Below are positions 23,710-64,000 of a DNA stretch of 64,000 nt, piece after piece (positions within the stretch are counted from its first letter, which is position 1; each line of letters begins with the position of its first letter). The notes beneath the pieces were generated by a model, which worked only from the letters and a program-made list of their open reading frames with translations, ran no database searches and was not told the DNA's origin. The DNA lies in IMG/VR virus record IMGVR_UViG_3300029906_000003, positions 1 to 64,000 of that record, one strand, 5' to 3'. The position numbers were made by a program, and so were the translations under genes. This stretch comes from a virus. Lineage: Duplodnaviria > Heunggongvirae > Uroviricota > Caudoviricetes.

Positions 23710-23723
23710 AAAAAAAAACAAGA

Positions 23724-23799: not shown

Positions 23800-23869
23800 A
23801 ATACTTAGTTCCCTAAGAATTTTGCTGTTACTGTCTTTATTTATATAAAACTATCAAGATACCTTTTTA

Positions 23870-23938
23870 AAACTGGGACTCGAACCCAGACCCTTTTGAT
23901 TATCAGTCAAATGCTCTAACCAGTTGAGCTATTAAGCG
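23870..23938 (-). tRNA. tRNA-Ile(GAU)-like pseudogene (acceptor strands do not pair)
   Basis: D-arm GCTC-AACTGGTTA-GAGC, anticodon arm TTTGA-CTGATAA-TCAAA and T-arm CTGGG-TTCGAGT-CCCAG are good, but the 3' acceptor TTTTAAA does not pair with the 5' side. Confidence 0.3.
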
Positions 23939-24056
23939 CGAGGTGCGCTCAAAAGTGTTTGCTGTAAGTATCTTTAATTGCGGATGGGATTAACCAATAT
24001 ATTTCTGCAAAATTAGTTAAAACAGACTCACCACGTGAAGGTTTTTGCATGAGTCC

Positions 24057-24142
24057 CGGGCGGGGTGGGATTCGAACCCACGGAGGCGTGAACCTCAACG
24101 GTTTTCAAGACCGTCTCAATAATCCAGCTCTGACACCCGCCC
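24057..24142 (-). tRNA. tRNA-Ser(UGA)
   Basis: acceptor GGGCGGG/CCCGCCC, anticodon stem ACGGT/ACCGT, loop CTTGAAA, long variable arm, G73. Confidence 0.85.
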
Positions 24143-24150
24143 AAAATAAT

Positions 24151-24297
24151 GGGGAAATTCACCCCTTGGCCGCATTCATCTGCCGCTTAGCCTTACGAAC
24201 AAGATTCTTATTACTTACCTGCTTTTTACCATTACTTACTGTATCACGATAGTTCAAACGGTTAATACGATTCTGAAAATGTTCAACAGTCTTATTC
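24151..24297 (-). CDS. small basic (Lys/Arg-rich) protein (48 aa)
   Basis: manual ORF MNKTVEHFQNRINRLNYRD...; RBS GGAGGG. Confidence 0.3.
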
Positions 24298-24305
24298 ATA
24301 TTATT

Positions 24306-24524
24306 TTAGCCCTCCAACATTGTCCAAAGAGTTACTTTATAACCAAATTGTGAATCTTCAATTAAAGGAACAATAGCAACAATATCTTTGCTTGCCAAAT
24401 TATTTGCCTTATAAAAAGTGATAAAACTTTCAATAACATTTTTCATAGCCGCCTTTTTGCTTGGATGCGGCCCATCCTCAAAAGTTCTAATTCTCATTTT
24501 CTGTAATAATGTTTTTCCCACCAC
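24306..24524 (-). CDS. hypothetical small protein
   Basis: ORF track. Confidence 0.45.
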   Translation of the reverse strand: MVGKTLLQKMRIRTFEDGPHPSKKAAMKNVIESFITFYKANNLASKDIVAIVPLIEDSQFGYKVTLWTMLEG

Positions 24525-24607
24525 TTCAAATAATCTTTAAGGGTTCCCTGGTTCTTCAAATGCGGCGATGGCGTTCCAAAAATTTTTAATTGCATTCCGA
24601 CGACACC

Positions 24608-24970
24608 TTACTTCCGATACTGAGGGCCGCGCTTATAATAAAAATTAACGAAGTCCTCAAGACTATTAATTTCAGGATGCTTCCACATAAAATATGGAGT
24701 AATTCCAGTTGCTTCATACTCTCTCATTTCGTGATAGTATGAAGCAATAACATCTTTCAAAGGCCAATAACAAATATAATCCGCAATATCCCAAGATTCA
24801 AAATTCTTTCGATAATATTTTTTTGCTCTTGGATTAGATGATTCATCCATTTGCCGCAGGAGGTCTTGCTTCATCTTTCTACGATACTTTCGATTAGCAA
24901 TTTGCTTAATCTGTTTCTTTTTCCTATTGCCATCTTTTGAAACAGGAAATTTCTTATAGCTACGACTCAT
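24608..24970 (-). CDS. hypothetical basic protein
   Basis: ORF track. Confidence 0.5.
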   Translation of the reverse strand: MSRSYKKFPVSKDGNRKKKQIKQIANRKYRRKMKQDLLRQMDESSNPRAKKYYRKNFESWDIADYICYWPLKDVIASYYHEMREYEATGITPYFMWKHPEINSLEDFVNFYYKRGPQYRK

Positions 24971-25090
24971 TAAGCAATCCTCCTACTCTTTTAACAAGAC
25001 AGTTTTTAATAATCACTTATATGATTCAAATTCATATGTTTATATTATAAAAACATTTGCTGTAACTGTCTTTCTTTTGTTTATATGCTT

Positions 25091-25119
25091 ATTATATCAT
25101 TTTTATAAAAATCTGTCAA
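25091..25119 (-). promoter_or_regulatory. sigma-A consensus promoter (TTGACA-17-TGaTATAAT), leftward
   Basis: revcomp reads ttgttgTTGACAgatttttataaaaaTGaTATAATaag; it is followed in the transcript by the conserved leader AAGACAGTTACAGCAAA. Confidence 0.6.
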
Positions 25120-25199
25120 CAACAGATTTCTTAATCTAAAATAAGTAGCAGTTTTACATCATGCTCAGGATGCGTCTTGAGGTAGCGAAATCTCTTGAC

Positions 25200-25286
25200 T
25201 GGTGGGCAGGGAACGGATTTGAACCTTTGAAGGACTAAGCCACCAGAACTACAATCTGGCCTCGTTGACCACTTGAGTACCTACCC
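25200..25286 (-). tRNA. tRNA-Tyr(GUA)
   Basis: type II; anticodon stem CCAGA/TCTGG, loop TTGTAGT, 3-bp D-stem, A73; T-stem has one mismatch and an extra C. Confidence 0.65.
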
Positions 25287-25294
25287 ATAATTAA

Positions 25295-25372
25295 TGGTAC
25301 TGTTGGAGAGACTTGAACTCTCAATTGTACAAGGTTTGAACTTGTTGCGTATGCCAATTCCGCCACAACAGC
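25295..25372 (-). tRNA. tRNA-Leu(CAA), atypically short variable arm
   Basis: anticodon stem ACAAG/CTTGT, loop TTCAAAC, T-arm GAGAG-TTCAAGT-CTCTC, A73, CCA. Confidence 0.6.
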
Positions 25373-25439
25373 ATATAAATTAGCCTTTTAAAGTCATGCT
25401 TAGGACTCATTGAAATGATGTAGTTAATTAGACTGCTAA

Positions 25440-25529
25440 TGGTGCGGGAAGAGAGATTTGAACTCTCATTCCTACTTTGTTCGGAGTCAACTTCTAAGGC
25501 TGATGTGGCTGCCGTTTCACCATTCCCGC
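25440..25529 (-). tRNA. tRNA-Leu(UAG)
   Basis: type II; anticodon stem TCAGC/GTTGA, loop CTTAGAA, T-arm GAGAG-TTCAAAT-CTCTC, A73. Confidence 0.8.
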
Positions 25530-25584
25530 ATATGAGAGCCTTTTATAGTCGTACTCAGGACTAATTTTTGGAGGTTCATCATGG

Positions 25585-25899
25585 TGGTGCTGCTGACGAG
25601 ATTTGAACTCGTAAGCTATTTCTAGCAACGGATTTTCTTACTACTTCATGTCGCCATGACCGCATTTGCGTTGTAGTCTGGAGTATACCTTGACCATATT
25701 ACTATTGTAACTTAGGTCCGCGCCGTCTACTCTCTCCACATTCCATTTTTCAATGTTAGCTCGGCGATAGTCTTAACCGATATTAATTAAGATTTCCCCC
25801 GAATTTGACGCGATTCACTCTAGTCATTTCTTCCTAGGTGCTCAAGCCTTCTTTTGTTAAGGCCAAGTCCGTAGTGTTTGCCAATTTCACCACAGCAGC
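25585..25899 (-). tRNA. tRNA-Leu(UAA) interrupted by a 229-nt putative group I intron in the anticodon loop. Exons are 25866-25899 and 25585-25636; the intron is about 25637-25865.
   Basis: 5' exon: GCTGCTG TG GTG-AAATTGGCAAA-CAC T ACGGA CTT. 3' exon: AAAA TCCGT T-GCTA-GAAA-TAGC-TT ACGAG-TTCAAAT-CTCGT CAGCAGC A CCA. Both acceptor strands and both anticodon-stem strands are complementary. The intron follows U34 and ends in G, as in cyanobacterial tRNA-Leu(UAA) introns. Confidence 0.55.
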
Positions 25900-26613
25900 A
25901 TATAGAAATTGAATACCTCACTTTTAACCACTCGCTAGACCTTCGTCTTACTCTCATCTATTCTCTGTTATATTCAGTCACGAGGCAATGAAGTCTGAGC
26001 TTCGGGTAGCGACCCCTAACTTCTTCACTGGCGGACCTAAATCCGCATTCTCTCTAGCCGCTTGATTACGACTAACTTTCACTCGTCATTCAGACCAATG
26101 TGTATAATACATATTCATCCAACGTCCAGATTTTGAGCTACTTGTACTGAACTCTCCCCTTATAGACAGATTTCTCTGCTTCAACTGGACATTATTTGCT
26201 TACTAGGATTACCTAGAGTTTGCTTAGTTTCCTAGGCTAAACCTTATCTAGGCTTATTCTCGTACTTGCGAGCGTCTATTGCGCAAACGGGGAGTCAAGT
26301 TCATACCTTTAACTAGGGAATAAATTACTAGCACCATAAACTCGCGGAAGTGGCCTTTGGCCGCTCATACTCTCACATCACTGAAAGAGTCATTTGGCTG
26401 TTACAAGGGTATCCTCTTGTCCAGTCCTACCCGCATATTTAAAGCTCATGTCTAGGCCAGATGACCTTCTGTCTTCACCTAGATAGCTAGTGGCTAAAAG
26501 TAAGGTATTCAATTCTCAAAGTTCTATTTATTTATCAAGACAGTATTTAAATCAGACTATCAATCTAACATTATCCAAGCTAAAATTTGCTGTAACTGTC
26601 TTTTGATGTATTT

Positions 26614-26642
26614 ATTATAACAAATTTTTATTTATTTGTCAA
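26614..26642 (-). promoter_or_regulatory. sigma-A consensus promoter (TTGACA-17-TATAAT), leftward, with the conserved leader motif
   Basis: revcomp reads TTGACAaataaataaaaatttgtTATAAT, then ..AGACAGTTACAGCAAATTTT. Confidence 0.6.
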
Positions 26643-26658
26643 TAAGGAATTTTATCTA

Positions 26659-27211
26659 TTAAACTTTGTTAAAGATAAAAACAACTTCCTTAGTGACCTC
26701 TTCCTCGTCAACAGTGTCAGTCAGATTGAGGACAATAGCAACACTAGACCAAGTCTCAGGCTCCTTAAAATAGACAGAACCTTCAAGAGAATAATCAGAA
26801 ATGTTTACGCCGTCTTCATCATGCGGATTCAGATTCACCTCAAGCAGATTATCGTCGCCAGTGTTCACAGGAGTCTCAGGAACATAACTGCCATCAAAAT
26901 AAGCGCGAACCATCAAATTCAAATGACCGTCATCAGGTTCCGCACTATTGATTTCAACGACCTTATCCAAATGATTCACCATTGTAAAATCTACCTGAAT
27001 ATAGCCGTCATGAGTAACGCCATACCCTACAGAATTTACAACGAATGCCTTGTCATCAAAAATCAAACTCTTAGTCTGCGGCTGGGAAGTAATGCCTTCA
27101 TCCTTATCTGCGGCAGGAGTCTGAGCTCAAGCCGTCATCATACTAGTTGCGGCCATGACACCAATAGCAGAAAGAAATGCCCGACGAGAAATCTTATTAA
27201 AATTCTTCATT
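26659..27211 (-). CDS. secreted (Tat-signal) hypothetical protein with an in-frame TGA between the signal peptide and the mature domain
   Basis: MKNFNKISRRAFLSAIGVMAATSMMTA[TGA]AQTPAADKDEG.. runs in frame into track ORF 26659-27066 (which starts at TTG); the twin-arginine motif SRRAFL is present. Confidence 0.35.
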
Positions 27212-27262
27212 AATTTTACCTCACTTTATGTTTTTGTTTTTTAATTTATTTATATTTTTTAC

Positions 27263-27338
27263 TGGAAGCGGCCATGGGGATTGAACCCATATCTCGAACT
27301 TGAGAGGCTCGTATCTTTGCCGATTGGACGAGGCCGCC
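27263..27338 (-). tRNA. tRNA-like, possible Glu(CUC); D-arm poorly formed
   Basis: acceptor GGCGGCC/GGCCGCT, T-arm ATGGG-TTCAATC-CCCAT, CCA; best anticodon stem CGAGC/GTTCG with loop CTCTCAA. Confidence 0.35.
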
Positions 27339-27493
27339 ATAAAAACAAGACGGAGTATAAAATGGAGCTATTTAAAGTAGCAATTTTTATTAGAATATTT
27401 GCTGTATCCGTCTTTAAGCTAATCCTTTTATATGGAGGACTAAAACCATACATCGTTATAGAAAGGAATTAAATATAATGGAACTTACTCCGG

Positions 27494-27569
27494 TGGTTGC
27501 GATGGAAGGATTTAAACCTTCGAATGGAGGAGTCAAAGTCCTCTGCCTTCATCACTTGGCTACACCGCA
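27494..27569 (-). tRNA. tRNA-Gln(UUG)
   Basis: U1:A72, anticodon stem GAGGA/TCCTC, loop CTTTGAC, T-arm GAAGG-TTTAAAT-CCTTC, CCA. Confidence 0.85.
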
Positions 27570-27608
27570 TTATAACTTAGCCTTTTTACATGGAAGGCTA
27601 AAACCGCA

Positions 27609-27684
27609 TGGGTGCGGATACGAGAATCGAACTCGTCCTATACTGCTTATGAGACAGTTCAGTACTCCAGCACTGTCATCCGCG
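27609..27684 (-). tRNA. tRNA-Met(CAU); the C1-A72 mismatch suggests an initiator type
   Basis: anticodon stem ACTGT/GCAGT, loop CTCATAA, T-loop TTCGATT, CCA. Confidence 0.75.
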
Positions 27685-27823
27685 ATATAAAAGCAAGCTT
27701 ATTTTACTACTGGCCTTGCTAACCAGGTGTCTGTTCAGTTCCTCCGAGTTCGTCATTCTTATATTATAGTCCCTTTGAACTCGCCAACTACGTTTTCCCT
27801 CGAAAGGCACAACTAAGGACTGA

Positions 27824-27916
27824 TGGAAGCGTAGAGGAGGCTCGAACTCCCAAACAGTATCACTACTGAGCTCCACTGTGAAAGAGTGGGGACTCTACCA
27901 ATTTGTCTACTACGCC
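27824..27916 (-). tRNA. tRNA-Glu(UUC)-like with an unusual 21-nt variable arm
   Basis: acceptor GGCGTAG/CTACGCT, D-stem GAC/GTC, anticodon stem CCACT/AGTGG, loop CTTTCAC, extra arm CAGT-AGTGAT-ACTG, T-arm GGGAG-TTCGAGC-CTCCT, CCA. Confidence 0.45.
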
Positions 27917-28036
27917 ATATTAAAGAGAAAAGATTTAAAAGTATTACTTTTCTCTTGTTTGTATATCTATTATACCATTTTTTATCTATTTTGTCAATAA
28001 GTAATTTCTTAAATCAAATTTTTCTTTTCTTTCTCT

Positions 28037-28177
28037 CTATGCGTTTTTATACGCTTCTAGCTCTTTCAAAAGTTTACATCCATTACAAGACTTCCTACGT
28101 TCGCAAAACCAACAGTTATCGGTATCCAGAGTAAACCATCGCGGAGGCTCTGGCCGCATCTTTCGTTTCTTTTTCAT
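28037..28177 (-). CDS. small Cys-rich (CxxC..CxxC) protein
   Basis: manual ORF MKKKRKMRPEPPRWFTLDTDNCWFCERRKSCNGCKLLKELEAYKNA, ends at a TAG (possible read-through). Confidence 0.3.
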   Translation of the reverse strand: MKKKRKMRPEPPRWFTLDTDNCWFCERRKSCNGCKLLKELEAYKNA

Positions 28178-28215
28178 AGATGTACTCCTTTTTCTATTGT
28201 TATTTTATTGCTGAC

Positions 28216-28291
28216 TGGTGCGGAATGAGGGATTTGAACCCACTACTTTTTGGATGTAAGCCAAATACTCTACCAACTGAGTTAATCCCGC
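28216..28291 (-). tRNA. tRNA-Val(UAC)
   Basis: acceptor GCGGGAT/ATTCCGC, anticodon stem TTTGG/CCAAA, loop CTTACAT, CCA. Confidence 0.85.
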
Positions 28292-28297
28292 ATTTTT

Positions 28298-28373
28298 TGG
28301 TGAGGTATCTTCGAGTTGAACGAAGATTGATAGATTTTCAGTCTACTGCCTTGACCACCTAGGCTAATACCCC
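28298..28373 (-). tRNA. tRNA-Phe(GAA)
   Basis: anticodon stem GTAGA/TCTAT, loop CTGAAAA, D-arm GCCT..AGGC, CCA. Confidence 0.85.
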
Positions 28374-28374
28374 A

Positions 28375-28450
28375 TGGCATAGTCGGAGAGAATCGAACTC
28401 CCAACATATAGTTTTGGAGACTATTGTTCTACCAGTTGAACTACGACTAC
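28375..28450 (-). tRNA. tRNA-Trp(CCA)
   Basis: anticodon stem ATAGT/ACTAT, loop CTCCAAA, T-loop TTCGATT, CCA. Confidence 0.8.
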
Positions 28451-28455
28451 ATAAT

Positions 28456-28530
28456 TGGCGGGTACACAGAGAATCGAACTCTGATTTTCAACTGGACAGG
28501 TTGAACTTCTAGCCATTGAACTATGCACCC
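28456..28530 (-). tRNA. tRNA-Asp(GUC)
   Basis: anticodon stem TCAAC/GTTGA, loop CTGTCCA, T-arm CAGAG-TTCGATT-CTCTG, CCA. Confidence 0.8.
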
Positions 28531-28534
28531 ATAA

Positions 28535-28611
28535 TGGAGGGGTATTTCAGATTTGAACTGAAGACACGAAGCTTAACAGGCTTCTGCTCTAACCTACTGA
28601 GCTAATACCCC
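28535..28611 (-). tRNA. tRNA-Asn(GUU)
   Basis: acceptor GGGGTAT/ATACCCC, anticodon stem GAAGC/GCTTC, loop CTGTTAA, CCA. Confidence 0.85.
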
Positions 28612-28757
28612 ATATATGGCGGGACAAGATGCGCCCTGCCGCAAGACAGTTTTATATTTCTTGCCTATCAAATATATATAAAAGAAATTTGCTGTATCTG
28701 TCTTATGTATTTATTATACCATTTTTTTATTTTTTTATCAATAAGGATTTTTTTTTA

Positions 28758-29585
28758 TTAAGCTATATAATCCTTTAAAACAGAAGCCCTGATTGGATTC
28801 CTCATCTTCTTGAGGGCGCACTTTTCTACTTGCCGCACTCGTTCTTTAGAAAGACCAATCTTTCTTGCAATTTCATCAAGAGTAAGAGGTTTAATATAAC
28901 CAATACCGAACCGCATCTTTAATATATCAGATTCTTTATCAGGAAGAGTACTCAATACTTTATTTATCTTCTAACACATTTCTTTTTCTTCATACTTCTC
29001 TTGAATTTCTGATTCTTTATCTTCAATAAAATCACCAAAAGAGTCTTCATTATCTTCCGAGATGGGAGAATCAAGAGAAATCATATCATTCATATAACTC
29101 TTAATTTTTTTCAGCTCTTCAAAAGTAATGCCCATTTCCGCGGCAACCTCTTCATCAGAGAACGAGTTATATTTTTGCATCATTCCCGTCGTAATCTTTT
29201 TATACTTATTAATTTTCTCAACAATATGACTAGGAACTCTGATATTTTCAGATTGCTGACTTAATGCTCGCGAAATTGCAGACTTAATCCAATAATAAGC
29301 ATATGTACTAAAACGATAACTACTGGACAAATCATATTTGTCAATAGCTGTCATTAAGCCAATATTACCTTCTTGGACCAAATCCAAAAAAGATAAACTT
29401 GCATTTTGCGAATAATATTTCTTAGCAATAAAAACAACAAGTCTAAGATTAGCCTCAATCAATTCTTCTCGTGCAGTCTTATTTCCTGACTGTGCTTTTT
29501 CAAGAAGAATCCTTTCGGTTTCCGTATCTAATATATTATCAGATAACTCATTTAAATAGATAGAACTAATATCAATATCTGCCAT
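28758..29585 (-). CDS. sigma-70 family sigma factor (regions 2-4, group 3/SigF-G-like) with 1 in-frame TAG between regions 3 and 4
   Basis: Track ORFs 28971-29585 (DLVQEGNIGLMTAIDKYD, region 2) and 28758-28955 (LTLDEIARKIGLSKERVRQVEKCALKKMR, region 4.2 HTH) share one frame and are separated by a single TAG: ..KEMC[TAG]KINKVLSTLPDKESD.. Confidence 0.75.
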
Positions 29586-29646
29586 TTATCTACATTCTCC
29601 TTTTTGTGTCAATAATTATAACATAAAAAAGAAAAAATGTCAATGG

Positions 29647-29865
29647 TTACTTTTTTGTTTTAGTATCCGCACGGTAACACAGCATAGAAACTGTCCAACA
29701 CTCATTTCCACATTCAGGACAACTAGCTGTATAATACGGAGGATTCAAGTCGTCCGCGGGGTGAAGGCACGTTTCTGTCGCCCTTTCAGCTTCAAAGACG
29801 CACCCACACAAATTACAATGGAAACGAATATTATTATAGTGATAACCATGTTCAAGGACTCTCAT
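29647..29865 (-). CDS. zinc-ribbon protein
   Basis: two CxxC pairs (CNLCGC, CPECGNEC). Confidence 0.45.
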   Translation of the reverse strand: MRVLEHGYHYNNIRFHCNLCGCVFEAERATETCLHPADDLNPPYYTASCPECGNECWTVSMLCYRADTKTKK

Positions 29866-29869
29866 TATT

Positions 29870-30463
29870 TTATTCCTCCACTATTACTTGAAAGACTTCC
29901 TTATCTACCCACAATCCAGAATTTAATGCCTCTTCATGCGAATCAAAGTAAATGTCAATAATCTTTTTTCCTAGTCCGCCGCCGCGGTCTTCAACAATGT
30001 ACTCATGTCCATCAATAACAATCTTAGTTCCGAAAGGAATACCATTCATTGCCGCAGTCCTGCCCGCAGTAGCTTTCGTTCCAGATGCAGTAATGCCATC
30101 CGTCTTGCCGCAACACTTTACGCAAGGGCAATAGGCAGAAATCTTATAAACGCCAAGTGAAACCAATTCAGGTTCTTTCTCTTTTTTAGCTTCCGCCTCT
30201 TTAATAATTACAGCATCTTTTTCTTTTTGCTCTAAAGCTAACTGCTCCATAGTAAATTCATACGGAGACTGATATGCGACAAGCTCACTATCGCATTCTT
30301 GAGACGCAATGGCATTTTTTACCGAAATGCATCCTACTAACGCAATAAGTGCGATTCCCGCGATAAATTCCTTTCCCAATCTCATTTCTCTTTCTCCTTT
30401 TCTATTGTTTTGATGCAAAGAATGAGAACTGGGAGGGGTAATATTAATTAAAAAATGAGCCAA
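29870..30463 (-). CDS. 3D-domain (MltA/YocH-like) lytic transglycosylase lipoprotein. The likely true start is MRLGKEF.. near 30388.
   Basis: lipobox LIALVGC; 3D domain YKISAYCPCVKCCGKTDGITASG...IDIYFDSHEEA. Confidence 0.65.
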   Translation of the reverse strand: MAHFLINITPPSSHSLHQNNRKGEREMRLGKEFIAGIALIALVGCISVKNAIASQECDSELVAYQSPYEFTMEQLALEQKEKDAVIIKEAEAKKEKEPELVSLGVYKISAYCPCVKCCGKTDGITASGTKATAGRTAAMNGIPFGTKIVIDGHEYIVEDRGGGLGKKIIDIYFDSHEEALNSGLWVDKEVFQVIVEE

Positions 30464-30659
30464 ATAAATTATCTAAAATAGTCCAGACATCTATAAGGCT
30501 CATTTATTGGTGCCACCCCCGTGAATCGAACACGGAACCTGTCAATTATAAGTTGACTGCTCTGACCAGTTGAGCTAGAGCGGCATATAAGGAGGCTTGA
30601 AGCACCTTGTCGCTTTCACATGGCGGCCTCTTTCTTTATATATTATACCATTTTTATTC

Positions 30660-53246: not shown

Positions 53247-53275
53247 ATGGGACTCATAATGAGTCCCTTTTTTTG
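53247..53275 (+). terminator. rho-independent terminator
   Basis: gggactcataatgagtccc followed by tttttttg. Confidence 0.65.
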
Positions 53276-53286
53276 TAGGAGAATAT

Positions 53287-54237
53287 ATGACCATTGTTAT
53301 AATAATATTATTAATGCTTGTTATAATTCTTCTATTTATAAATACTTCTATAAAAAAAATAGATGCAAGAGAAGCATAGCTAAAAGTAGAAGAATTATAG
53401 CATAAGAATACGATACTACAGTATACAATATAGCAATAGCAAGATGAAAAAGAAAAATATTCTAGCAAGATAAATAATCTAATTCAAGAGAAAGAAAAAC
53501 TTGATACTGAAATAAACCAGAAGAAAATATGCTTAGTTAATTATGAAAAAGATATTGAACTAGATTACTAGAATAAACAATAGCAAATGAAAAATGCGGC
53601 AAGTCTTTATTTTGACTCGCTAGAAAAATCATATAAAACAAAAGAAGAAGAATATGATAAGAAGTGCGCGGCCCTCGTCTCAGAAATGGCGGACATGCAA
53701 TCCTAGTATGCAGAGATTTAGTCCCAACTTGTATAGGGCGCCGCGGCCGCATTAAGAGAGCGAGAAAAGAAAGAGAAGATTAATTTCTACAAACTCAAAT
53801 TATCAGATTCTGATTCTATTGATATAAAAGAATTGTTTGAGCTAAGAAAGAGGTTCCGCAATCCTTCTGCATTAAGCAAATTGGTTTGGAGCGAATACTT
53901 CTTGAAGTAGACCTCTGAATTATGTAATAGAGTATTGGGGACTAATACGAAATGCGGAATTTATAAAATAACTAACTTAATTTCTAATCAGGCTTATATT
54001 GGTCAAAGTGTAGATATAGCTAGTCGTTTTAAGCAACACATTAAATGCGGTTTGGGCATAGACGCGCCTGCATCAAATAAACTATATAAATCCATGATCG
54101 AAGATGGTGTTTGGAATTTTTCTTTTGAATTATTAGAAGAATGCCCTAAAGATAAATTAAATGAAAGAGAATCTTTCTGGATAGATTTATATTAGACTAA
54201 TAAAGTAGGATTAAATAGTACGAAAGGAAATGGCTAA
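53287..54237 (+). CDS. coiled-coil protein with a C-terminal GIY-YIG nuclease domain; 13 in-frame TAG codons
   Basis: One frame runs from ATG 53287 (RBS AGGAG) into track ORF 53935-54195 (GIYKITNLISNQAYIGQS..R..H..ERESFWI). Translation with TAG as X gives a Q/E/K-rich coiled coil. Confidence 0.6.
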
Positions 54238-58147: not shown

Positions 58148-58669
58148 ATGGGCTTAAGAACCTGCATTTATTGTAAACAAAAATTTGACATAGATAAAGT
58201 TGATAAAGCAACTTTAGTTAAAGTTACTCCATCCAGATATGCTCACAAAAAATGCTATGAAGATTTTAATAACAATAGACTAAAGAAAAAAGGAAATGAA
58301 GTTACTCTTGAAGCGGTAAAGGCTTATATTAATGAAGCCTTAAAAGGGACTGAAATTAATTGGCCTAATCTAATGAAAGAGATTGTTAAGTATACCAAAT
58401 CAGGATATAATTATGAAAGAATTTATAAGACTTTGATTTATTGTTTTGAAGTCAAGAGAATAGATAAATTTAAGTTTAATGGGCATATTGGATTAATTAA
58501 TAATTATTTTGCAGAAGCGGCTAAGTATTATAAAGATATTGATAAATATAACGAATTAAAGGCAATAGAAATAAAGAAAGAGGACGCGGCCAAGCAGATA
58601 AAAATCCTGCCGCCGCGCAGTAAACCAAATATAAAGTTAATTGATTTGGAGGAAGATTTAGGTCTATGA
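58148..58669 (+). CDS. hypothetical zinc-finger protein
   Basis: ORF track (start at MGLRTCIYC). Confidence 0.5.
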   Translation: MGLRTCIYCKQKFDIDKVDKATLVKVTPSRYAHKKCYEDFNNNRLKKKGNEVTLEAVKAYINEALKGTEINWPNLMKEIVKYTKSGYNYERIYKTLIYCFEVKRIDKFKFNGHIGLINNYFAEAAKYYKDIDKYNELKAIEIKKEDAAKQIKILPPRSKPNIKLIDLEEDLGL

Positions 58670-60195
58670 ATAAAAGGATTGTAGATATGCAAAGTAATCT
58701 TCAAGTATTAGGAAATTTGTTGTTGAATCCTAGCCTTTTAGACCAGCCAGAATATAATGTAATCAAAGAAGATTTTACAGAAGATTTACATAGAGTAATT
58801 TTTGCCGCAGTAACTAATTTGTACAAGTTAGGAAATAAAGAAATTACTGCGCCTCTCATTAATGATTATTTAAGAGATAAAGTAAAAGCCTATACAATCT
58901 TCAAATCTTGTAATGGTATTAACTGGATAAAACAAACTCTTGAAATTGTTCAATCTAATGGATTTAATTATTATTATAAGAGAATGAAGAAGTTCACTCT
59001 TTTAAGAATGTATAATGATATTGGATTAGATATATCAAATTTTTATGATGCTGATAATGCTTTTGATTTAAAGAAGAAACAAAAGCAAGATGAATGGTTG
59101 GATAATACAGACGTTGAAGAAATAGCTGACTTAATTGATAAGAAAATTAATTCTATTAAGTTAAAATATGCGAATGTTTCAGAGTCAGATTTTTTTGATG
59201 GCGGCGATGGCATTGTCGAGTTGATTGAAAGTTTTAAATCAACCCCTGATGTGGGAATGCCTTTATATGGAGACATTATTAATACCGTAACGCGCGGCGC
59301 TCGTCTCGGAAAGTTTTATTTGCGCTCTATGCCGACAAATACTGGTAAGTCGCGTATGATGATTGCAGACGTATGTAACTTTGGATGCGATGAAATTTAT
59401 AATATTGAGACTGGTCGCTGGGAAAAGAATGGCGTGAAGGTAGAAACTTTATTCATCATTACAGAGCAGAAAAAAGATGAAGTACAAACTGCTATGTTGG
59501 CTTTTTTGTCTGGTGTTAATGAAGAAAAGATTAGATTATACTCATATAATGAGGATGAGTTGCAAAGAATTTATCATGCGGCTGAATTAATAAAGAACTC
59601 TAAAATCCATATAAAAGAATTACCAGATTTTTCCATGCAAGATATTGAAAATGCAATAAAATATTCAATTAATGAATGGGGAGTTCAATACGTATTATTT
59701 GATTATCTACATTCATCTTTGAAAATATTAAGTGAAGTATCTAGTAAAGCGCGAGTATCTAATTTAAGAGAAGATAACATTCTTTTTATGATTAGTACTC
59801 GCCTTAAAGATTTATGCACGCAATATGATATTTTTATTCTAACTTCCACCCAGTTGAATGGAGGATACCAAGATGCAACGGTATATGACCAGAACCTGTT
59901 GCGAGGAGCGAAGAGTATCGCGGACAAGACGGATATCGGAATGATTGGACTTGGTACCACAGAGAAAGACCGCGAGACACTGCAAAATCTCACTATACAG
60001 CTTGGTGTTCCAATGCCAAATATAAAAATCTCAATATATAAGAACAGGGGCGGCCGCTGGAAAGATATTATTCTATGGTGCAATGCAGATAAAGGTATTT
60101 GTAGATATAATCCAATCTTTGTTACAGACTATAACTATGAGTTGATTCCTATTGTTGATTTAAAAATTAATGTAGAGGATTTAAATAATGCTTGA
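58666..60195 (+). CDS. DnaB-family replicative helicase
   Basis: N-terminal DnaB-like domain; RecA-fold motifs GARLGKFYLRSMPTNTGKS and KNRGG. Confidence 0.7.
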   Translation: MNKRIVDMQSNLQVLGNLLLNPSLLDQPEYNVIKEDFTEDLHRVIFAAVTNLYKLGNKEITAPLINDYLRDKVKAYTIFKSCNGINWIKQTLEIVQSNGFNYYYKRMKKFTLLRMYNDIGLDISNFYDADNAFDLKKKQKQDEWLDNTDVEEIADLIDKKINSIKLKYANVSESDFFDGGDGIVELIESFKSTPDVGMPLYGDIINTVTRGARLGKFYLRSMPTNTGKSRMMIADVCNFGCDEIYNIETGRWEKNGVKVETLFIITEQKKDEVQTAMLAFLSGVNEEKIRLYSYNEDELQRIYHAAELIKNSKIHIKELPDFSMQDIENAIKYSINEWGVQYVLFDYLHSSLKILSEVSSKARVSNLREDNILFMISTRLKDLCTQYDIFILTSTQLNGGYQDATVYDQNLLRGAKSIADKTDIGMIGLGTTEKDRETLQNLTIQLGVPMPNIKISIYKNRGGRWKDIILWCNADKGICRYNPIFVTDYNYELIPIVDLKINVEDLNNA

Positions 60196-61294
60196 TAAAG
60201 ACCAAATAAAAAATTCTTTAAGTATCAATCAAATCTTTGATTTTTTATCAGAGTATGGCGGCGAGCCAATAGTGAAAGATAGTAATACTATTATTAGTAA
60301 AACTATCTGTCATAATGCAATAGAAGAAATAAATGATGCAAGTTATAAGTTATATTATTATGACAACACTCATTTGTTTCATTGTTATACTGGATGTGCA
60401 GAGCCTAGCTTTGATATATACGATTTAATGACTAAAATCAAAAATATTAATGGCAATGACCAATGGAAAATGGCTAATTCTGTTTTTTATATAGCAGAGT
60501 ATTTTGGTTATTCTCAATTAGATTCAACTTTAAGCCAAGAAGAAAAAGTTTTACCAGATTGGAAAATCCTTAAAGATTATGATAAAATAAATTTAGAAAT
60601 AGATGAAAAACAAATTGTTGAATTAAAAATCTATGATGAAAAAGTTCTTAGATATTTGCCTAGGCCGCATATCTTAAATTGGGAAAGAGAAGGAATAACT
60701 AAACAGGTCATGCAAAAGAATAATATTTGTTATGACCCTTTAAGTCAAGGGATAGTTATTCCACATTATAATATTGAGAATCAATTAATTGGAATAAGAG
60801 AAAGAACACTAATTAAAGATAAAGAAATAGAAGGAAAATATAAACCAGCTTTTTTGAATGGGCAATTATATAATCATCCATTAGGATTTAATTTATATAA
60901 TATAAACAATAGCAAAAATAACATAAAACTAATGCAGAAAGCTATTATCTTTGAGTCAGAGAAATCAACTTTGTTAATGCAATCATATTTTCCTGGAGCT
61001 GATATTAGTGTAGCGTGCTGCGGCAGCAATTTAACTAATTATCAATTCAAGTTATTGTTATCTCTTGGCGTAAATGAAGTTTCAATAGCTTTTGATAGGC
61101 AATTTAAGAAAGTTGGAGATGAAGAATTTAAAAGATGGACAAAAAAGCTGGAGAGTATTAATAATAAATATAAAGGCTTTTGTCGTATTACTTTTCTGTT
61201 TGATAAAAAAGGACTATTAAATTACAAAGATAGTCCAATAGATTGCGGGCCAGATATATTTATGAAATTATACACAGAAAGGATTGCTATGTAA
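60188..61294 (+). CDS. DNA primase (zinc-binding plus TOPRIM)
   Basis: CHNAI..HLFHCYTGC zinc finger; TOPRIM IIFESEKS. Confidence 0.7.
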   Translation: MLDKDQIKNSLSINQIFDFLSEYGGEPIVKDSNTIISKTICHNAIEEINDASYKLYYYDNTHLFHCYTGCAEPSFDIYDLMTKIKNINGNDQWKMANSVFYIAEYFGYSQLDSTLSQEEKVLPDWKILKDYDKINLEIDEKQIVELKIYDEKVLRYLPRPHILNWEREGITKQVMQKNNICYDPLSQGIVIPHYNIENQLIGIRERTLIKDKEIEGKYKPAFLNGQLYNHPLGFNLYNINNSKNNIKLMQKAIIFESEKSTLLMQSYFPGADISVACCGSNLTNYQFKLLLSLGVNEVSIAFDRQFKKVGDEEFKRWTKKLESINNKYKGFCRITFLFDKKGLLNYKDSPIDCGPDIFMKLYTERIAM

Positions 61295-61298
61295 GAAA

Positions 61299-63062
61299 AT
61301 GGGTTTTAACTTTAAACTAATTAATCCTAGAAATGAATTATATACAATAGAAGAATAGATATTAACGAATCGTGGAATCCCTTATGAATTAGTTAGCTCT
61401 TATTTGGATAGAAATAACTTTGATGACATTGCTGAACCAGAAACTTTAGGAGAAGAATTGTTGGAGAAGGCGGCTAAAGCAATAGGAGAATGTATTGAAC
61501 GCGGCGGCCGCACCCTTGTCATAGTGGATTGCGATGTTGATGGGTATACCTCTAGTGCTTTACTTGTCAATTATTTAAATCGTATTGCCCCCACATGGGC
61601 TAAGGACAATCTCTTTTATTATCATCATACCTCTAAACAACATGGTCTGGGAGATTGTATAGATGAAGCGTTGAAATATGATTTAGTTATTTGTCCAGAT
61701 AGTGCATCTTCTGATGTAAATGAGCATAAGAGATTATATGATGCAGGAATACCTTTAATCGTATTAGACCACCACTTGACAGACATCGGAGAAAATACTT
61801 TAAACTATCCTTATGCTATTATTATAAATAGCTAGTGCAATGGATACAAAAATAAAGATTTATCTGGCGTAGGAGTTGTTTGGCAGTTCTGTAGATATTG
61901 TGATAAAAGAATGAACCGCAATTATGCAGATGATTATTTAGACTTGGCCGCGGTTGGACTAGTAGGAGATATGATGGATTTGAAGTCTATGGAGACGAAG
62001 GAACTAGTCCAATTAGGGCTTGGCCGCATCCATAATCCTTTTCTTGTTGGTATGTGTGAGAAGAACGCTTTCTCAATGAAGGGTGCAGTTAATCCATTTA
62101 CCGTAACATTTTATATTGTGCCTTTTGTTAATGCGATAACTAGAAGCGGAACTCAAGAGGAAAAAGAATTAATTTTTGATTCAATGCTTGAGTCAAAAGC
62201 TAATAATAAGATTCTTTCAACAAAAAGAGGTCATAAGTTAGGAGAACAAGAAACAATCCTTACGCAAGCTCTTAGGGTAGTTACAAATGTTAAAAAACGT
62301 CAAACTGATGCTCAAGATGCTAGTGTAGAATATCTAGAGCGCATTATCGCAGAGAAAGGACTGGCCGCGCACAAAACTTTAATTATCACTTTAGAAAATA
62401 ATAATAAGGTTGAACCAGAAGTTAGAGGTTTAATTGCTAATAAATTAATGGCTAAATATTGCAGGCCTTGTTGCATTTTAACGTTGCGGAATGACATCTA
62501 TGAAGGTAGTGCAAGAGGATATGAAAAAGGTAGTGTGAAAGATTTCAAAAATATATGCGAACAAACTGGCTTGATTGAATACGCGCAAGGTCATATGTCC
62601 GCCTTTGGTCTTAGTGTGGCTAAAGAAAATTTAGCTAAATTTATTGAGACATTAGATGATATTCTTGTAGATTTTACCCCTGATTCTTCTTACTTTGTTG
62701 ATTTTATTTATGAGAATAAAGATATTCCTGATAAAGACATTCTGACTATTGCTTCCATGAATGATTTGTGGGGGCAAGGAGTAGCAGAACCTTATATTGC
62801 AATTATTCATTTAAAATTGACTAAAGATATGATAACACTAATGTCGCCTGGCGCGCATCCTACACTAAAGTTTTCTGTCAATAAAATAGGTATTATTAAA
62901 TTTAAAGCTAGTCAAGAAGAATATGAACAGTTAATAGCTGATGGATACGTTGAACTTAATATTATTGGTAGATGCGCAAAAAATGAATGGCATGGAAGAA
63001 TTTCACCTCAAATACTTGTAACTGATTATGAAATAATTAGTAAATGTGATTATGATTTTTGA
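61299..63062 (+). CDS. recJ: RecJ-like DHH-family 5'-3' ssDNA exonuclease with 2 in-frame TAG codons
   Basis: One frame from ATG 61299 runs through the TAGs at about 61365 and 61836 and joins track ORFs 61404-61835 and 61911-63062. Motifs ILTNRGI, VIVDCDVDGYTS, VLDHHLTD. Confidence 0.7.
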
Positions 63063-63145
63063 TTAAGCTGCTGTGGAAGCAGCTTTTTCTATATTGATAA
63101 AAAAGTAAAAATATGATATAATTATTATATATGAGGTGATAATTA

Positions 63146-64000
63146 TGGAATTGAATGAAGGCCAGAAGAAAGCTGTTCAAGAAGCAATTAAAAGAATCAA
63201 TAATCATGAAATTTGTACTTGTATAGCTGGGCCTGCGGGCACAGGCAAAGCTCAACCGGTAAGCACCAAGATTCCTACTCCAACTGGAAAAATGCGTATG
63301 GGCGATTTAAGGGTTGGAGACTTTGTTTTTAATGAAAAAGGTCAACCAACAAAGGTAATTGGAGTTTTTCCGCAAGGAGTCAAAGAAATTTATGAAGTTA
63401 GTTTACAAGATGGGAGAAAAACTCAGTGCTGCGAAGAGCATCTGTGGTATGTAAAGCAGATTGGCTGTAAGAATTGGAAAGTATTCACTACAAAAGAAAT
63501 ACTAGATAGCAATTTGTATTTGATTGCCGCATATAGAATCCCAGTATGTAATAATCCAGTAGAATATAATTATCCTGATGAAATTGGAATAGATTATTTC
63601 CTTGCAGGCCAGCAACTAGCTATTCAAGAAGAAGAGATTCCAGAATCTTATAAATATATTTCAATTCCTAGTCGTCATAAACTAATCCAAGGCTTAATGT
63701 CTTGGGGTGGCACGATAAATAGCGAGAGTTATGATGTTAGGTTTAGTACCAAAAATGAGGCACTGGCCGCAGATGTCCAAGAAGTGTTATATAGTCTAGG
63801 ATATATTTCTTCTTTATCTATTGATTTATCTTATCATTTGAATATTGATATTCCAAATAAGAAAAAATATAAGTTATTTGAAAAAGGCTCGGAACACTAT
63901 CTACTTGCATTGGAAGCAATGAAAATAAAGCAGCTTAGAGATTTTGATTCAACTGCTATTGTTAATATTCAACCAACTGGTCGTTATGAAGAGATGGTCT
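63146..64000 (+). CDS. SF1 (Dda/RecD-like) helicase, 5' part, interrupted by an intein (Hint plus LAGLIDADG-like domain) inserted in the Walker A motif; truncated by the window end
   Basis: LNEGQKKAV..CIAGPAGTGK, then AQPVSTKIPTPTGKMRMGDLRVGDFVF..KTQCCEEHLWYV (Hint blocks A and B), then YFLAGQQLAIQ. Confidence 0.55.

What the first reader, a model, noticed from the sequence alone, without database searches (positions are those of the whole stretch)
63146..64000. Intein inserted in the Walker A motif of a Dda/RecD-like helicase
The helicase N-terminus ends ..GPAGTGK and is followed directly by Hint-domain blocks and a LAGLIDADG-like segment. The block A-like sequence is ..STKIPTPTG.. and the block B-like sequence is TQCCEEHLWYV. 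This interrupts the P-loop where an S or T is expected. Insertion in a P-loop is a classic intein site, and the first intein residue appears to be Ala (non-canonical class). The element runs off the window end.
Basis: partly seen in the sequence, partly recalled or inferred. Interest (0 to 1): 0.65.

Follow-up and report, generated by a model that had tools for sequence, protein, structure and literature searches.

The report
Class 3 intein splitting a phage helicase P-loop
A phage DNA-helicase gene is interrupted inside its ATP-binding loop by a self-splicing protein element (an intein) of the well-known "class 3" type with a decayed homing-endonuclease domain; it is real, but it is an ordinary example of a very common kind.

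Summary
An ORF starts at ATG 63145, one base before the stated start. It encodes 35 residues of an SF1B Dda/RecD2-like helicase ending GPAGTGK, then runs in frame into an intein (Ala36, 63250) that leaves the window.

The window's own intein sequence matches solved inteins: gp41-1 at 3e-10 and class 3 DnaB inteins at about 1e-5.

Four closest relatives (81% and about 52% identity) continue ...EEMVCIKVD...NDFIVTHN|TTVV. Splicing would therefore restore GPAGTGK-TT. More than 1,000 intein-less homologues have the uninterrupted loop.

Ala1 and Trp at block B12 are in the window. Cys F4, Thr G5, His-Asn and Thr+1 are seen in every relative. Together these are the class 3 signature, so the block F cysteine should start splicing rather than residue 1.

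The LAGLIDADG domain has lost its first lobe and both catalytic acids, so homing is probably dead.

This family is very large (12,792 cluster representatives; 479 deposited phage genomes). Lys|Thr of a P-loop is its classic insertion site. I rate it a new member of a known kind, of low interest.

In passing: the window comes from a phage that reads TAG as Gln and carries a ROOL RNA. A relative has a group I intron in the same helicase gene.

The parts
63065..63085 (+). Terminator-like hairpin plus T-run that closes the upstream RecJ-like gene
   Evidence: 8-bp stem AAGCTGCT/AGCAGCTT followed by TTTCTATATT. Two such sites were found against 0.2 expected.
63094..63122 (+). Sigma-70-type promoter-like site for the helicase gene (TTGATA, 17 nt spacer, TATAAT, with TG before the -10)
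   Evidence: 11 of 12 consensus matches. This is a consensus match only, and function is inferred.
63133..63139 (+). Shine-Dalgarno-like GAGGTGA, 5 nt before the ATG
   Evidence: Read directly.
63145..63249 (+). N-extein: helicase residues 1-35 (MELNEGQK...CIAGPAGTGK). The first seven residues of Walker A are at 63229-63249.
   Evidence: Weak AAA_11, AAA_30 and ResIII hits on residues 1-38. It is collinear with more than 1,000 intein-less helicases that carry GxAGxGK[ST]T.
63250..64000 (+). Intein, partial: residues 36-285 of the precursor, about 250 of a predicted 268-278 residues. It runs off the window.
   Evidence: phmmer against PDB inteins at 3e-10 to 2e-5. P0001 is 81% identical and continues to THN|T.
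63250..63288 (+). Intein block A (AQPVSTKIPTPTG). Residue 1 is Ala (GCT 63250-63252), which is not a nucleophile.
   Evidence: Ala36 is invariant in alignments A1-A3. Of 149 related N-terminal intein halves, 98 start with Ala.
63412..63453 (+). Intein block B (GRKTQCCEEHLWYV). B7 is Cys96, B10 is His99 (63439-63441), and B12 is Trp101 (63445-63447), the 'W' of the class 3 WCT triplet.
   Evidence: C95, H99 and W101 are invariant. The definition of B12 Trp is from PMC2807308.
63589..63624 (+). Remnant of the first LAGLIDADG motif (IDYFLAGQQLAI). It has no acidic residue, and about 60-90 residues of the first lobe are deleted relative to P0005, P0006, P0134 and P0144.
   Evidence: Alignments. 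Intact relatives read DPYxxGxFLGDGCC.
63676..63723 (+). Second LAGLIDADG motif, degenerate (HKLIQGLMSWGGTINS). Intact relatives read QGLMDTDGS. Both Asp residues are replaced, by Ser and Gly.
   Evidence: Pfam LAGLIDADG_3 on residues 181-227, E=0.0015, below the cut-off. Alignment.
63724..63948 (+). Rest of the retained endonuclease lobe (alpha-beta-beta-alpha-beta-beta-alpha) and linker
   Evidence: The AF2 model of P0001 has block-mean pLDDT mostly 77-94 over residues about 150-270. Foldseek hits PI-SceI at 4e-8 and I-DmoI at 1e-3. This is the most diverged stretch against L003 (58-78% nt identity).
63949..63999 (+). Start of the C-terminal splicing region (STAIVNIQPTGRYEEMV). It ends one residue before the block F Cys.
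   Evidence: Relatives continue MVCIKVDNP.ELYLTNDFIVTHN|TT. Base 64000 is T, and the codon is TGT in L003.

Best explanation
The gene encodes a precursor of a phage SF1B (Dda/RecD2-type) DNA helicase. Its Walker A loop, GPAGTGK|T, is interrupted between the invariant Lys and the following Thr by a class 3 intein of about 270 residues.

**Proposed mechanism**
1. Residue 1 is Ala, so it cannot start splicing. Instead the block F cysteine (F4) attacks the Lys35-Ala36 peptide bond, activated by block B His99 and Trp101. This gives a thioester-branched intermediate.
2. The N-extein is then passed to the side chain of Thr+1.
3. The C-terminal Asn cyclises, helped by the penultimate His and by Thr G5, and releases the intein.
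4. An O-to-N acyl shift leaves an intact GPAGTGKTT loop.

Until this happens the helicase cannot bind ATP.

**Endonuclease domain**
The intein's LAGLIDADG homing-endonuclease domain has lost its first lobe and both catalytic acidic residues. The element is probably no longer mobile by homing. It persists because imprecise loss would destroy the P-loop.

**Shown versus inferred**
- Shown: sequence homology, collinearity of the exteins, and the residues Ala1, His B10 and Trp B12 in the window.
- Inferred from four close relatives and many same-site alleles: Cys F4, Thr G5, His-Asn, Thr+1 and the rest of the helicase.
- Inferred from published biochemistry of class 3 inteins: the chemistry itself.
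For: **In the window**
- The ORF and its motifs are read directly.
- The window's intein matches solved inteins: gp41-1 6qaz at 3e-10, gp41-1_WCT 6riz at 2.3e-11, and the class 3 DnaB inteins of Mycobacterium chimaera and M. smegmatis (6rix/6riy and 6bs8) at 6e-6 and 2e-5 (structure identities from PMC7664689).

**Close relatives**
- P0001 (81% identity) and P0002-4 (about 52%) continue ...EEMVCIKVDxPxELYLTNDFIVTHN|T[TS]VVR.IIDELGL.
- In L005 the whole 688-aa precursor is readable through helicase motifs III to VI.
- The spliced sequence aligns without a gap across the junction to RecD2 (1.2e-15) and T4 Dda (2.6e-15).

**Intein-less alleles**
- There are 1,192 intein-less homologues. The 120 best listed are 45-56% identical, most over the full query length. 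Of those, 98 show an uninterrupted GxAGxGK[ST]T loop.

**Selection**
- The N-extein and N-terminal splicing domain are under strong purifying selection against L003: dN/dS is 0.05 over 90 codons.

**Family pattern**
- Same-site full-length alleles P0144, P0164 and P0201 have Cys F4, Thr G5, HN and Thr+1.
- Among the 150 best relatives, 98 of 149 intein starts are Ala and 20 are Pro. At least 79 follow GxGK.
- In a rough regex count with overlapping matches, F4 is Cys in 159 of 216 candidate C-junctions, G5 is Thr in 204 of 216, and +1 is Thr or Ser in 203 of 216.

**Literature**
- The class 3 definition and mechanism are from PMC2807308.
- The Lys|Thr 'classic P-loop insertion' is described in PMC5050341.

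**Endonuclease decay**
- Shown by the alignments.
- Foldseek on the AF2 model returns PI-SceI (4e-8), the TliVMA intein, 6bs8 and I-DmoI.
Against: - Blocks F and G, the +1 residue and the C-extein of this particular genome lie beyond base 64000. The source contig could not be retrieved from any collection. Three of the class-defining residues therefore rest on relatives.
- No curated intein model (Pfam or NCBIfam) reaches its threshold.
- The AF2 model is poor over the Hint part, with pLDDT below 50 for residues 23-79 and 291-314.
- Grafting Ala1 and WCT onto the closest solved homologue, gp41-1, did not give a splicing intein (PMC7664689). The triplet alone does not guarantee activity.
- Splicing has not been observed.
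Confidence: 0.88

Rival explanations
1. It is an intein that splices by a class 2 (KlbA-like) route. With Ala at position 1, the +1 residue attacks the N-terminal junction directly, and no block F nucleophile is used.
For: [quoted passage not shown] The block F residue of this genome is not visible in the window.
Against: - Class 2 inteins lack the WCT triplet and use Cys+1 (PMC2807308).
- Here Trp B12 is present in the window.
- Every close relative has Cys F4, Thr G5 and Thr+1.
- Sequence similarity is to class 3 DnaB inteins and gp41-1. The PDB search returned no KlbA-type intein.
Confidence: 0.04
2. It is a decayed, non-splicing intein relic. The helicase gene would be a pseudogene, or its product an inactive or merely self-cleaving protein.
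For: - The endonuclease domain is clearly decaying.
- The central region is highly diverged between close phages (58-78% nt identity).
- A non-splicing intein pseudogene has been reported in this intein group: the Arthrobacter sp. FB24 Arth_1007 intein (title and abstract of PMC3196547, listed).
- The C-terminal half of this copy is unseen.
Against: - The frame is open for all 285 codons in an AT-rich genome.
- The splicing blocks are invariant across relatives that are only about 52% identical.
- dN/dS is 0.05 in the N-terminal splicing domain and 0.22 even in the endonuclease remnant.
- The gene has its own promoter-like site and SD and sits in a replication module.
- In L005 the complete helicase is intact.
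Confidence: 0.06
3. It is a naturally split intein or fractured gene like gp41-1, the closest solved homologue. The helicase would then be made as two polypeptides joined in trans.
For: gp41-1, the best PDB match, is a naturally split intein. The window ends inside the element.
Against: - The reading frame is continuous from block A through the endonuclease remnant into the start of block F.
- In L003, L005 and L001 the intein is contiguous and in cis.
Confidence: 0.01
4. The motifs resemble an intein by chance, or the junction is an assembly chimera between a helicase fragment and an unrelated ORF.
For: Pfam and NCBIfam hits are all below their cut-offs.
Against: - E-values are 3e-10 to solved inteins and 3.4e-152 to an independent metagenome contig with the same junction.
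- The same junction occurs in four or more independent assemblies.
- DNA identity to L003 across the junction is 98-100%.
Confidence: 0.01

Closest known systems
Class 3 inteins, prototype mycobacteriophage Bethlehem DnaB intein (Tori et al. 2010, PMC2807308)
   Same: - No Cys/Ser/Thr at position 1.
- Trp at B12. Cys at F4 and Thr at G5, both seen in relatives.
- Thr at +1 (in relatives).
- The host is a phage helicase-type ATPase, and the insertion is in the P-loop.
   Different: - The host is an SF1B Dda/RecD2-like helicase, not DnaB.
- Sequence similarity is only distant: E about 1e-5 to 1e-8 against the bacterial DnaB class 3 inteins.
- Block B carries Cys-Cys at B6-B7.
- The endonuclease domain is reduced to one dead lobe.
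gp41-1 intein (cyanophage-like DNA helicase, PDB 6qaz), and its engineered Ala1/WCT version 6riz
   Same: - It is the best solved match: 3e-10 for the native protein and 2.3e-11 for the engineered one.
- Blocks A and B are similar (..KTQVQTPQG.. and ..CSEEHL[F/W]).
- Both end in THN followed by a hydroxyl residue.
   Different: - gp41-1 is class 1: Cys1, Phe at B12, Asp at F4.
- It is naturally split and has no endonuclease domain.
- The engineered WCT version does not splice (PMC7664689). The natural family here carries Ala1 plus WCT throughout.
Mycobacterium smegmatis / M. chimaera DnaBi1 class 3 mini-inteins (PDB 6bs8, 6rix, 6riy)
   Same: - Class 3 signature.
- P-loop of a helicase.
- Block F reads ..C.EVDNP.HLYL.. 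and block G reads THN.
   Different: - These are bacterial chromosomal DnaB mini-inteins with no endonuclease domain.
- Block B reads ADAAHQW rather than CCEEHLW.
TerL1-a and other 'classic' P-loop inteins (Kelley et al. 2016, PMC5050341)
   Same: The insertion lies exactly between the invariant Lys and the nucleophilic Thr of Walker A. They are phage-borne, and many are class 3.
   Different: The extein is a terminase ATPase rather than a helicase.
PI-SceI / TliVMA intein-endonucleases
   Same: The overall architecture is a Hint domain with an inserted LAGLIDADG domain. They are the top Foldseek hits (4e-8 to 1e-6).
   Different: - They are class 1 inteins.
- They have a complete two-lobed, active endonuclease.
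- TM-scores are only about 0.3-0.4, on a mediocre model.

Membership tests
Intein (Hint-fold protein-splicing element) | Significant homology of the insert to known intein splicing domains | tested here: met
   The window's own sequence against PDB: gp41-1 at 3e-10 and class 3 DnaB inteins at 6e-6 and 2e-5. Foldseek on the relative's model returns PI-SceI, TliVMA and 6bs8. Curated Pfam and NCBIfam models are sub-threshold.
Intein (Hint-fold protein-splicing element) | The exteins are collinear with intein-less homologues, with no residue gained or lost at the junction | tested here: met
   GPAGTGK|TTVVRYII from the N-extein (window) plus the C-extein (P0001) lines up with GYAGTGKSTLVKFII in 120 intein-less homologues. 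It aligns without a gap to RecD2 and Dda. The C-extein comes from relatives only.
Class 3 intein | Non-nucleophilic residue at intein position 1 | tested here: met
   Ala36, GCT at 63250-63252. It is invariant in relatives.
Class 3 intein | Trp at block B position 12, two residues after the B10 His | tested here: met
   His99, Leu100, Trp101 at 63439-63447.
Class 3 intein | Cys at block F position 4, the obligate nucleophile | tested here: inconclusive
   The window ends after Val285 plus one base (T). The next codon is TGT (Cys) in L003. Cys is present in P0001-4, P0134, P0144, P0164 and P0201. It is not visible for this genome.
Class 3 intein | Thr at block G position 5, followed by His-Asn at the intein C-terminus | tested here: inconclusive
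   This lies beyond the window. The close relatives P0001-4 and the same-site alleles P0144, P0164 and P0201 read VTHN, and P0134 reads VSHN.
Class 3 intein | [quoted passage not shown] | tested here: inconclusive
   This lies beyond the window. All eight relatives printed (P0001-4, P0134, P0144, P0164, P0201) have Thr+1. Among related inteins generally, +1 is Thr or Ser in 203 of 216 candidate junctions (rough regex count).
Class 3 intein | Splicing through a thiol-labile block F branched intermediate; Cys(F4) is essential | not testable with these tools
   This needs expression and mutagenesis.
Class 2 (KlbA-type) intein | No N-terminal nucleophile, no WCT triplet, Cys at +1 | tested here: not met
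   Trp B12 is present in the window. Relatives have Cys F4, Thr G5 and Thr+1.
Active LAGLIDADG homing endonuclease | Two LAGLIDADG helices, each ending in a catalytic Asp or Glu | tested here: not met
   - The first motif is reduced to FLAGQQLAI, and the lobe behind it is deleted.
- The second reads GLMSWGG where intact relatives read GLMDTDG.
- LAGLIDADG_3 scores only 19.2 bits against a cut-off of 22.5.
Naturally split intein (gp41-1 type) | The N- and C-terminal intein halves are encoded by separate genes | tested here: not met
   There is one open frame from block A to the start of block F in the window. The intein is contiguous in L001, L003 and L005.
SF1B Dda/RecD2-like helicase (host protein) | Walker A, Walker B (DE), motif III (GDxxQLPPV) and motifs V/VI in order | tested here: inconclusive
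   - Only Walker A (split) is in the window.
- Relatives show VVDEVS, GDDA(Q)LPPI, TVWKAQGSEW and YTGITRA.
- They match RecD2 and Dda in PDB, TIGR01448 RecD2 at 4.7e-13, and AAA_30 and AAA_19 above their cut-offs.

The most novel reading that the evidence does not exclude
The one-lobed LAGLIDADG remnant may not be mere debris. It is kept in frame, is predicted as a confident compact fold, and shows dN/dS of about 0.22 despite having lost both catalytic acids. It could therefore have a new role, for example DNA or extein binding that tunes splicing. In this reading the intein acts as a conditional switch on helicase activity in a TAG-recoded phage. In the closest relatives the same gene also carries a TAG at the invariant Gln of motif III, so the helicase would be gated twice: by suppressor-tRNA-dependent translation and by protein splicing. 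This natural Ala1/WCT family is also clearly homologous to class 1 gp41-1. It could serve to test whether class 3 inteins diverged from class 1 or arose convergently, as proposed in PMC7664689.
Probability: 0.12. Interest if true: 0.5.

Novelty: new member of a known kind. Interest (0 to 1): 0.25.

Why it matters
The practical value is mainly for annotation.

- **The intein is missed by standard pipelines.** Pfam and NCBIfam thresholds do not call it.
- **Relatives' genes are miscalled.** Gene callers also truncate the gene in the closest relatives at a recoded TAG. Public predictions therefore list a 424-433 aa 'AAA domain' protein rather than a helicase precursor of about 690 aa.
- **Correct reading needs two corrections.** The replication module of this phage group only reads correctly once both the intein and the TAG=Gln code are recognised.

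Biologically, it adds one more case to a known rule: class 3 inteins live in phage helicase and ATPase P-loops. It also shows a late stage of the homing cycle, in which the splicing domain is conserved and the endonuclease is half deleted. It does not open a new question on its own.

Tried and rejected
**Extending the window.** None of these found the source contig.
- Exact 34-mer from the window end against viral, genome and metagenome collections.
- A degenerate back-translated pattern for GTGKAQPVxTxIPTPTG against viral and metagenome collections.
- Megablast of 61000-64000 against deposited phages.

**Related loci.** The search for related loci in viral contigs returned only a 26%-identical relative, L004, which was not used.

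**Curated domain libraries.** All intein, Hint and LAGLIDADG hits for the window and for P0001 and P0004 were below the curated cut-offs. Homology was therefore established through PDB sequences and the metagenome protein sets instead.

**Structure model.** AF2 on a 7-sequence alignment gave a mediocre model: pLDDT 68, with the Hint part below 50. It was used only as weak corroboration.

**Other readings considered and rejected.**
- The 72-aa minus-strand ORF 63037-63255 overlaps the promoter and N-extein. It was treated as spurious. It was not searched. It lies antisense to a conserved coding region.
- A second intein of this family elsewhere in the window: none found by phmmer against all six-frame ORFs with TAG read as Gln.
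- A suppressor tRNA (anticodon CTA) in the window: none among the 23 ARAGORN tRNAs or the 2 extra Rfam tRNAs.

**L001 intron splice junctions.** The exon alignment to L005 demands ...GAGCAT|intron|CAATTACCC. The last intron base would then be A, and the nearest G lies 10 nt upstream, which breaks the frame. This is left unresolved.
Full report
**What is in the window**

An ORF on the + strand begins at ATG 63145. The finding's start, 63146, is one base late. A terminator-like hairpin at 63065-63085 closes the upstream gene. It is followed by a promoter-like site with 11 of 12 consensus matches at 63094-63122, and by GAGGTGA at 63133-63139.

The frame is open for all 285 codons to the window end. 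It reads MELNEGQKKAVQEAIKRINNHEICTCIAGPAGTGK, then AQPVSTKIPTPTGKMRMGDLRVGDFVFNEKGQPTKVIGVFPQGVKEIYEVSLQDGRKTQCCEEHLWYV..., then ...IDYFLAGQQLAI...HKLIQGLMSWGGTINS...STAIVNIQPTGRYEEMV.

Curated domain libraries give only sub-threshold hints. Pfam reports LAGLIDADG_3 at 0.0015, Hom_end_hint at 0.01, and AAA_11 and AAA_30 at about 0.01. NCBIfam gives nothing significant.

**Is it more than chance?**

Yes. The window's own intein segment (63250-63999) matches solved inteins by plain phmmer:
- gp41-1 (6qaz) at 3e-10
- the engineered gp41-1_WCT (6riz) at 2.3e-11
- the class 3 Mycobacterium chimaera DnaB1 intein (6rix/6riy) at 6e-6
- the class 3 M. smegmatis DnaB1 intein (6bs8) at 2e-5

The identities of these entries come from PMC7664689. 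An exhaustive HMMER scan of 1.84 billion cluster representatives found 12,792 relatives at E<=1e-3 and 6,422 at E<=1e-10.

**What lies past the window end**

The source contig could not be recovered from any collection. Four independent metagenome proteins share the same N-extein, the same junction and the same intein. P0001 is 81% identical and P0002-4 are about 52% identical.

All four continue ...EEM[VL]CIKVDxPxELYLTNDFIVTHN|T[TS]VVR.IIDELGL..EVAFA.FTGKAAQVL... The intein therefore ends His-Asn and the first C-extein residue is Thr. The ligated product reads GPAGTGK-TT, which is a normal Walker A loop.

Several results confirm the host protein and the junction:
- Spliced in silico, the L001 protein aligns without a gap across the junction to Deinococcus RecD2 (3e1s, 1.2e-15) and T4 Dda (3upu, 2.6e-15).
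- The spliced query finds 1,192 intein-less homologues. The 120 best listed are 45-56% identical, most over the full query length. Of these, 98 show an uninterrupted GxAGxGK[ST]T loop and 109 a GDxxQ[LI]x[PSA][VI] motif III.
- In contig L005 the complete 688-residue precursor can be read through motifs III to VI.

In every relative that test comes out in favour of the intein.

**Which kind of intein**

Tori et al. (PMC2807308) define class 3 inteins by two features: no Cys, Ser or Thr at position 1, and the co-varying WCT triplet. The triplet is Trp at block B position 12, Cys at block F position 4, and Thr at block G position 5. Thr or Ser at +1 usually accompanies it. [quoted passage not shown]

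In the window:
- Position 1 is Ala (63250-63252).
- Block B is GRKTQCCEEHLWYV, which places His99 at B10 and Trp101 at B12.

The window stops one base (T) into the codon that is TGT (Cys F4) in L003. All eight relatives inspected have Cys F4, His-Asn and Thr+1. Thr G5 is present in all of them except P0134, which has Ser.

Among the 150 best relatives:
- 98 of 149 recognisable intein starts are Ala and 20 are Pro.
- At least 79 follow a GxGK P-loop.
- 28 sit in the N-terminal P-loop of a protein.

A rough regex count of candidate C-junctions, with overlapping matches, gives the same picture:
- Cys dominates F4 (159 of 216).
- Thr dominates G5 (204 of 216).
- Thr or Ser dominates +1 (203 of 216).

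Class 2 lacks WCT and uses Cys+1. The Lys|Thr position is what Kelley et al. call the 'classic' P-loop intein insertion (PMC5050341).

**How it most likely works**

These steps are inferred from the published class 3 pathway:
1. The Cys F4 thiol attacks the Lys35-Ala36 bond, activated by His B10 and Trp B12. This forms a thioester branch.
2. The N-extein moves to the Thr+1 hydroxyl.
3. The terminal Asn cyclises and frees the intein.
4. An O-to-N shift gives the native Lys-Thr bond.

The precursor has about 270 residues wedged into its phosphate-binding loop. It should be inactive until it is spliced.

**The endonuclease domain**

More distant same-site alleles (P0005, P0006, P0134, P0144, P0232, P0262) have two proper LAGLIDADG motifs. 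They read ..G.FLGDGCC.. and ..QGLMDTDGS...

The window, P0001 and P0002-4 lack about 60-90 residues of the first lobe. What remains of motif 1 is FLAGQQLAI. Motif 2 reads GLMSWGG, so both acidic residues are gone. An active two-lobed LAGLIDADG enzyme is therefore excluded by sequence.

The retained lobe is still predicted as a confident compact fold, with block-mean pLDDT mostly 77-94 for residues about 150-270 of P0001. The Hint part of the same model is poor, and the overall pLDDT is 68. Foldseek on that model returns PI-SceI (4e-8), the TliVMA intein, 6bs8 and I-DmoI.

**Evolutionary pattern**

I compared the window with L003 region by region:

| Region | nt identity | dS | dN/dS |
|---|---|---|---|
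| N-extein plus N-terminal splicing domain | 98% | 0.05-0.10 | 0.25 (N-extein, 35 codons); 0.05 (splicing domain, 90 codons) |
| Upstream RecJ-like gene | mostly 82-97% | not computed | not computed |
| Endonuclease remnant | 75% | 0.90 | 0.22 |

The tenfold jump in synonymous divergence cannot come from relaxed selection alone. It points to recombination between diverged intein alleles. The remnant's dN/dS of 0.22 suggests some remaining constraint. These estimates rest on 140 codons and one pair of sequences.

**Context**

The gene closes a replication module:
- DnaB-like helicase, 58666-60195
- primase-like protein, 60188-61294
- RecJ-like exonuclease, 61266-63062

In the relative L001 the helicase is followed by a DNA polymerase III alpha gene and by another intein-bearing gene. 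tblastn finds related inteins in 479 deposited phage genomes, 169 of them mycobacteriophages. All are below 60% identity, and none is a close relative of this phage.

**Things seen on the way**

- **TAG is read as an amino acid, almost certainly Gln.**
  - An ORF at 8294-16123 reads through 11 TAGs to give a 2,610-residue tail-fibre-like protein.
  - The ORF at 53263-54237 has 11 TAGs and a GIY-YIG domain.
  - The RecJ-like gene needs 2 TAGs, and one of them lies inside its Pfam DHH match.
  - In L003 and L005 the helicase itself has a TAG exactly at the invariant Gln of motif III, GDDA-TAG-L[SP]P[VI]. This is why the public gene calls P0001-3 all stop at ...GDDA. P0004 stops at ...GDEH for a different reason, described next.
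  - This code is known for gut phages (PMC9523058; bioRxiv 10.1101/2021.08.26.457843).
- **A group I intron in a relative.**
  - In L001 the same codon position holds an insert of about 1.25 kb.
  - It has partial group I intron matches, with conserved P3/P7-type segments, at E of 0.001 and 0.016. Both are below the gathering score.
  - It also holds an ORF carrying four in-frame TAGs that ends at TAA. An apparent same-frame continuation with two more TAGs follows. I could not place the splice junctions consistently.
- **RNA genes.** The window carries a full-length ROOL RNA (25918-26506, minus strand, 303 bits) inside an array of about 25 tRNA genes. None has a CTA anticodon.

**Verdict**

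It is sharpened to a class 3 intein with a decayed one-lobed LAGLIDADG domain, inserted at the classic Lys|Thr position of the Walker A loop of a Dda/RecD2-like helicase, in a TAG-recoded phage.

This is a new member of a thoroughly described and very abundant kind. Three of the class-defining residues are inferred from relatives, because the window ends one codon too early. Interest is low. The main value is correct annotation of the gene.

Noticed in passing
window 8294-16123 (+), 53263-54237 (+), 61266-63062 (+): The phage reads TAG as a sense codon, most likely Gln (code 15). A 2,610-aa tail-fibre-like ORF contains 11 in-frame TAGs. A 325-codon ORF with a GIY-YIG domain contains 11. The RecJ-like gene contains 2, one of them inside its Pfam DHH match. 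Under the standard code these genes are broken into pieces.
   Followed up: partly
L003 1988-1990; L005 about 1973-1975: In the closest relatives the helicase gene has a TAG exactly at the invariant Gln of motif III (GDDA-TAG-LSPV and GDDA-TAG-LPPI), and the frame continues to a complete helicase. Public gene calls P0001-3 are truncated there. Whether the window's own gene has this TAG cannot be seen.
   Followed up: yes
L001 2534-3774: In a relative that is 52% identical, the same motif III codon position holds an insert of about 1.25 kb.
- It has partial Rfam group I intron matches at 2561-2713 and 3705-3736, below the gathering score.
- It contains an ORF with Zn-finger-like CxxC pairs, carrying four in-frame TAGs and ending at TAA. 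An apparent same-frame continuation with two more TAGs has a PD-(D/E)xK-like tail.
- The exon alignment requires a 3' junction with no G as the last intron base, so the splice sites are unresolved.

This helicase gene can therefore carry an intein, an intron and a recoded stop.
   Followed up: partly
window 25918-26506 (-): There is a full-length ROOL RNA (Rfam RF03087, 303 bits, E=9e-69, model positions 1-574) embedded in the tRNA array.
   Followed up: no
window 20175-30584 (-): The window holds an array of 23 tRNA genes by ARAGORN, plus two more found by Rfam: 23252-23322, which looks like Cys-GCA, and 23871-23933, which is a partial model match. Several are unusually long, for example Phe(aaa) at 96 nt, Glu(ttc) at 93 nt and Arg(tct) at 89 nt. 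No CTA-anticodon suppressor tRNA is present in the window despite the TAG recoding.
   Followed up: partly
window 63540-63930 vs L003: There is a sharp mosaic boundary inside the intein. Flanks and splicing domain are 98% identical to L003, while the endonuclease remnant is only 58-78% identical. Its dS is 0.90 against 0.05-0.10 in the flanks, and there is a 10-codon indel. This suggests recombination between diverged intein alleles.
   Followed up: partly
L001 9699-10533: A second intein-containing gene lies about 5 kb downstream of the helicase in the relative's replication module, with precomputed Pfam Intein_splicing and faint LAGLIDADG_3 hits. The corresponding region lies beyond this window.
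   Followed up: no
P0007, P0130, P0133, P0137, P0138 and others: The same intein family occupies two further recurrent sites in PhoH-like ATPases...AYMRGR|AQP... and ...GFLPG|PQP.... Several proteins among the relatives carry two or more of these inteins, some at PhoH-type sites.
   Followed up: no
window 63427-63429 (Cys95, block B position 6): A Cys at B6, next to the B7 Cys in CCEEHLW, is invariant in all close relatives and common across the family. gp41-1 also has it, but the mycobacterial DnaB class 3 inteins do not. Its role is unknown. A partner for the catalytic block F Cys, as a redox control, is only a guess.
   Followed up: no
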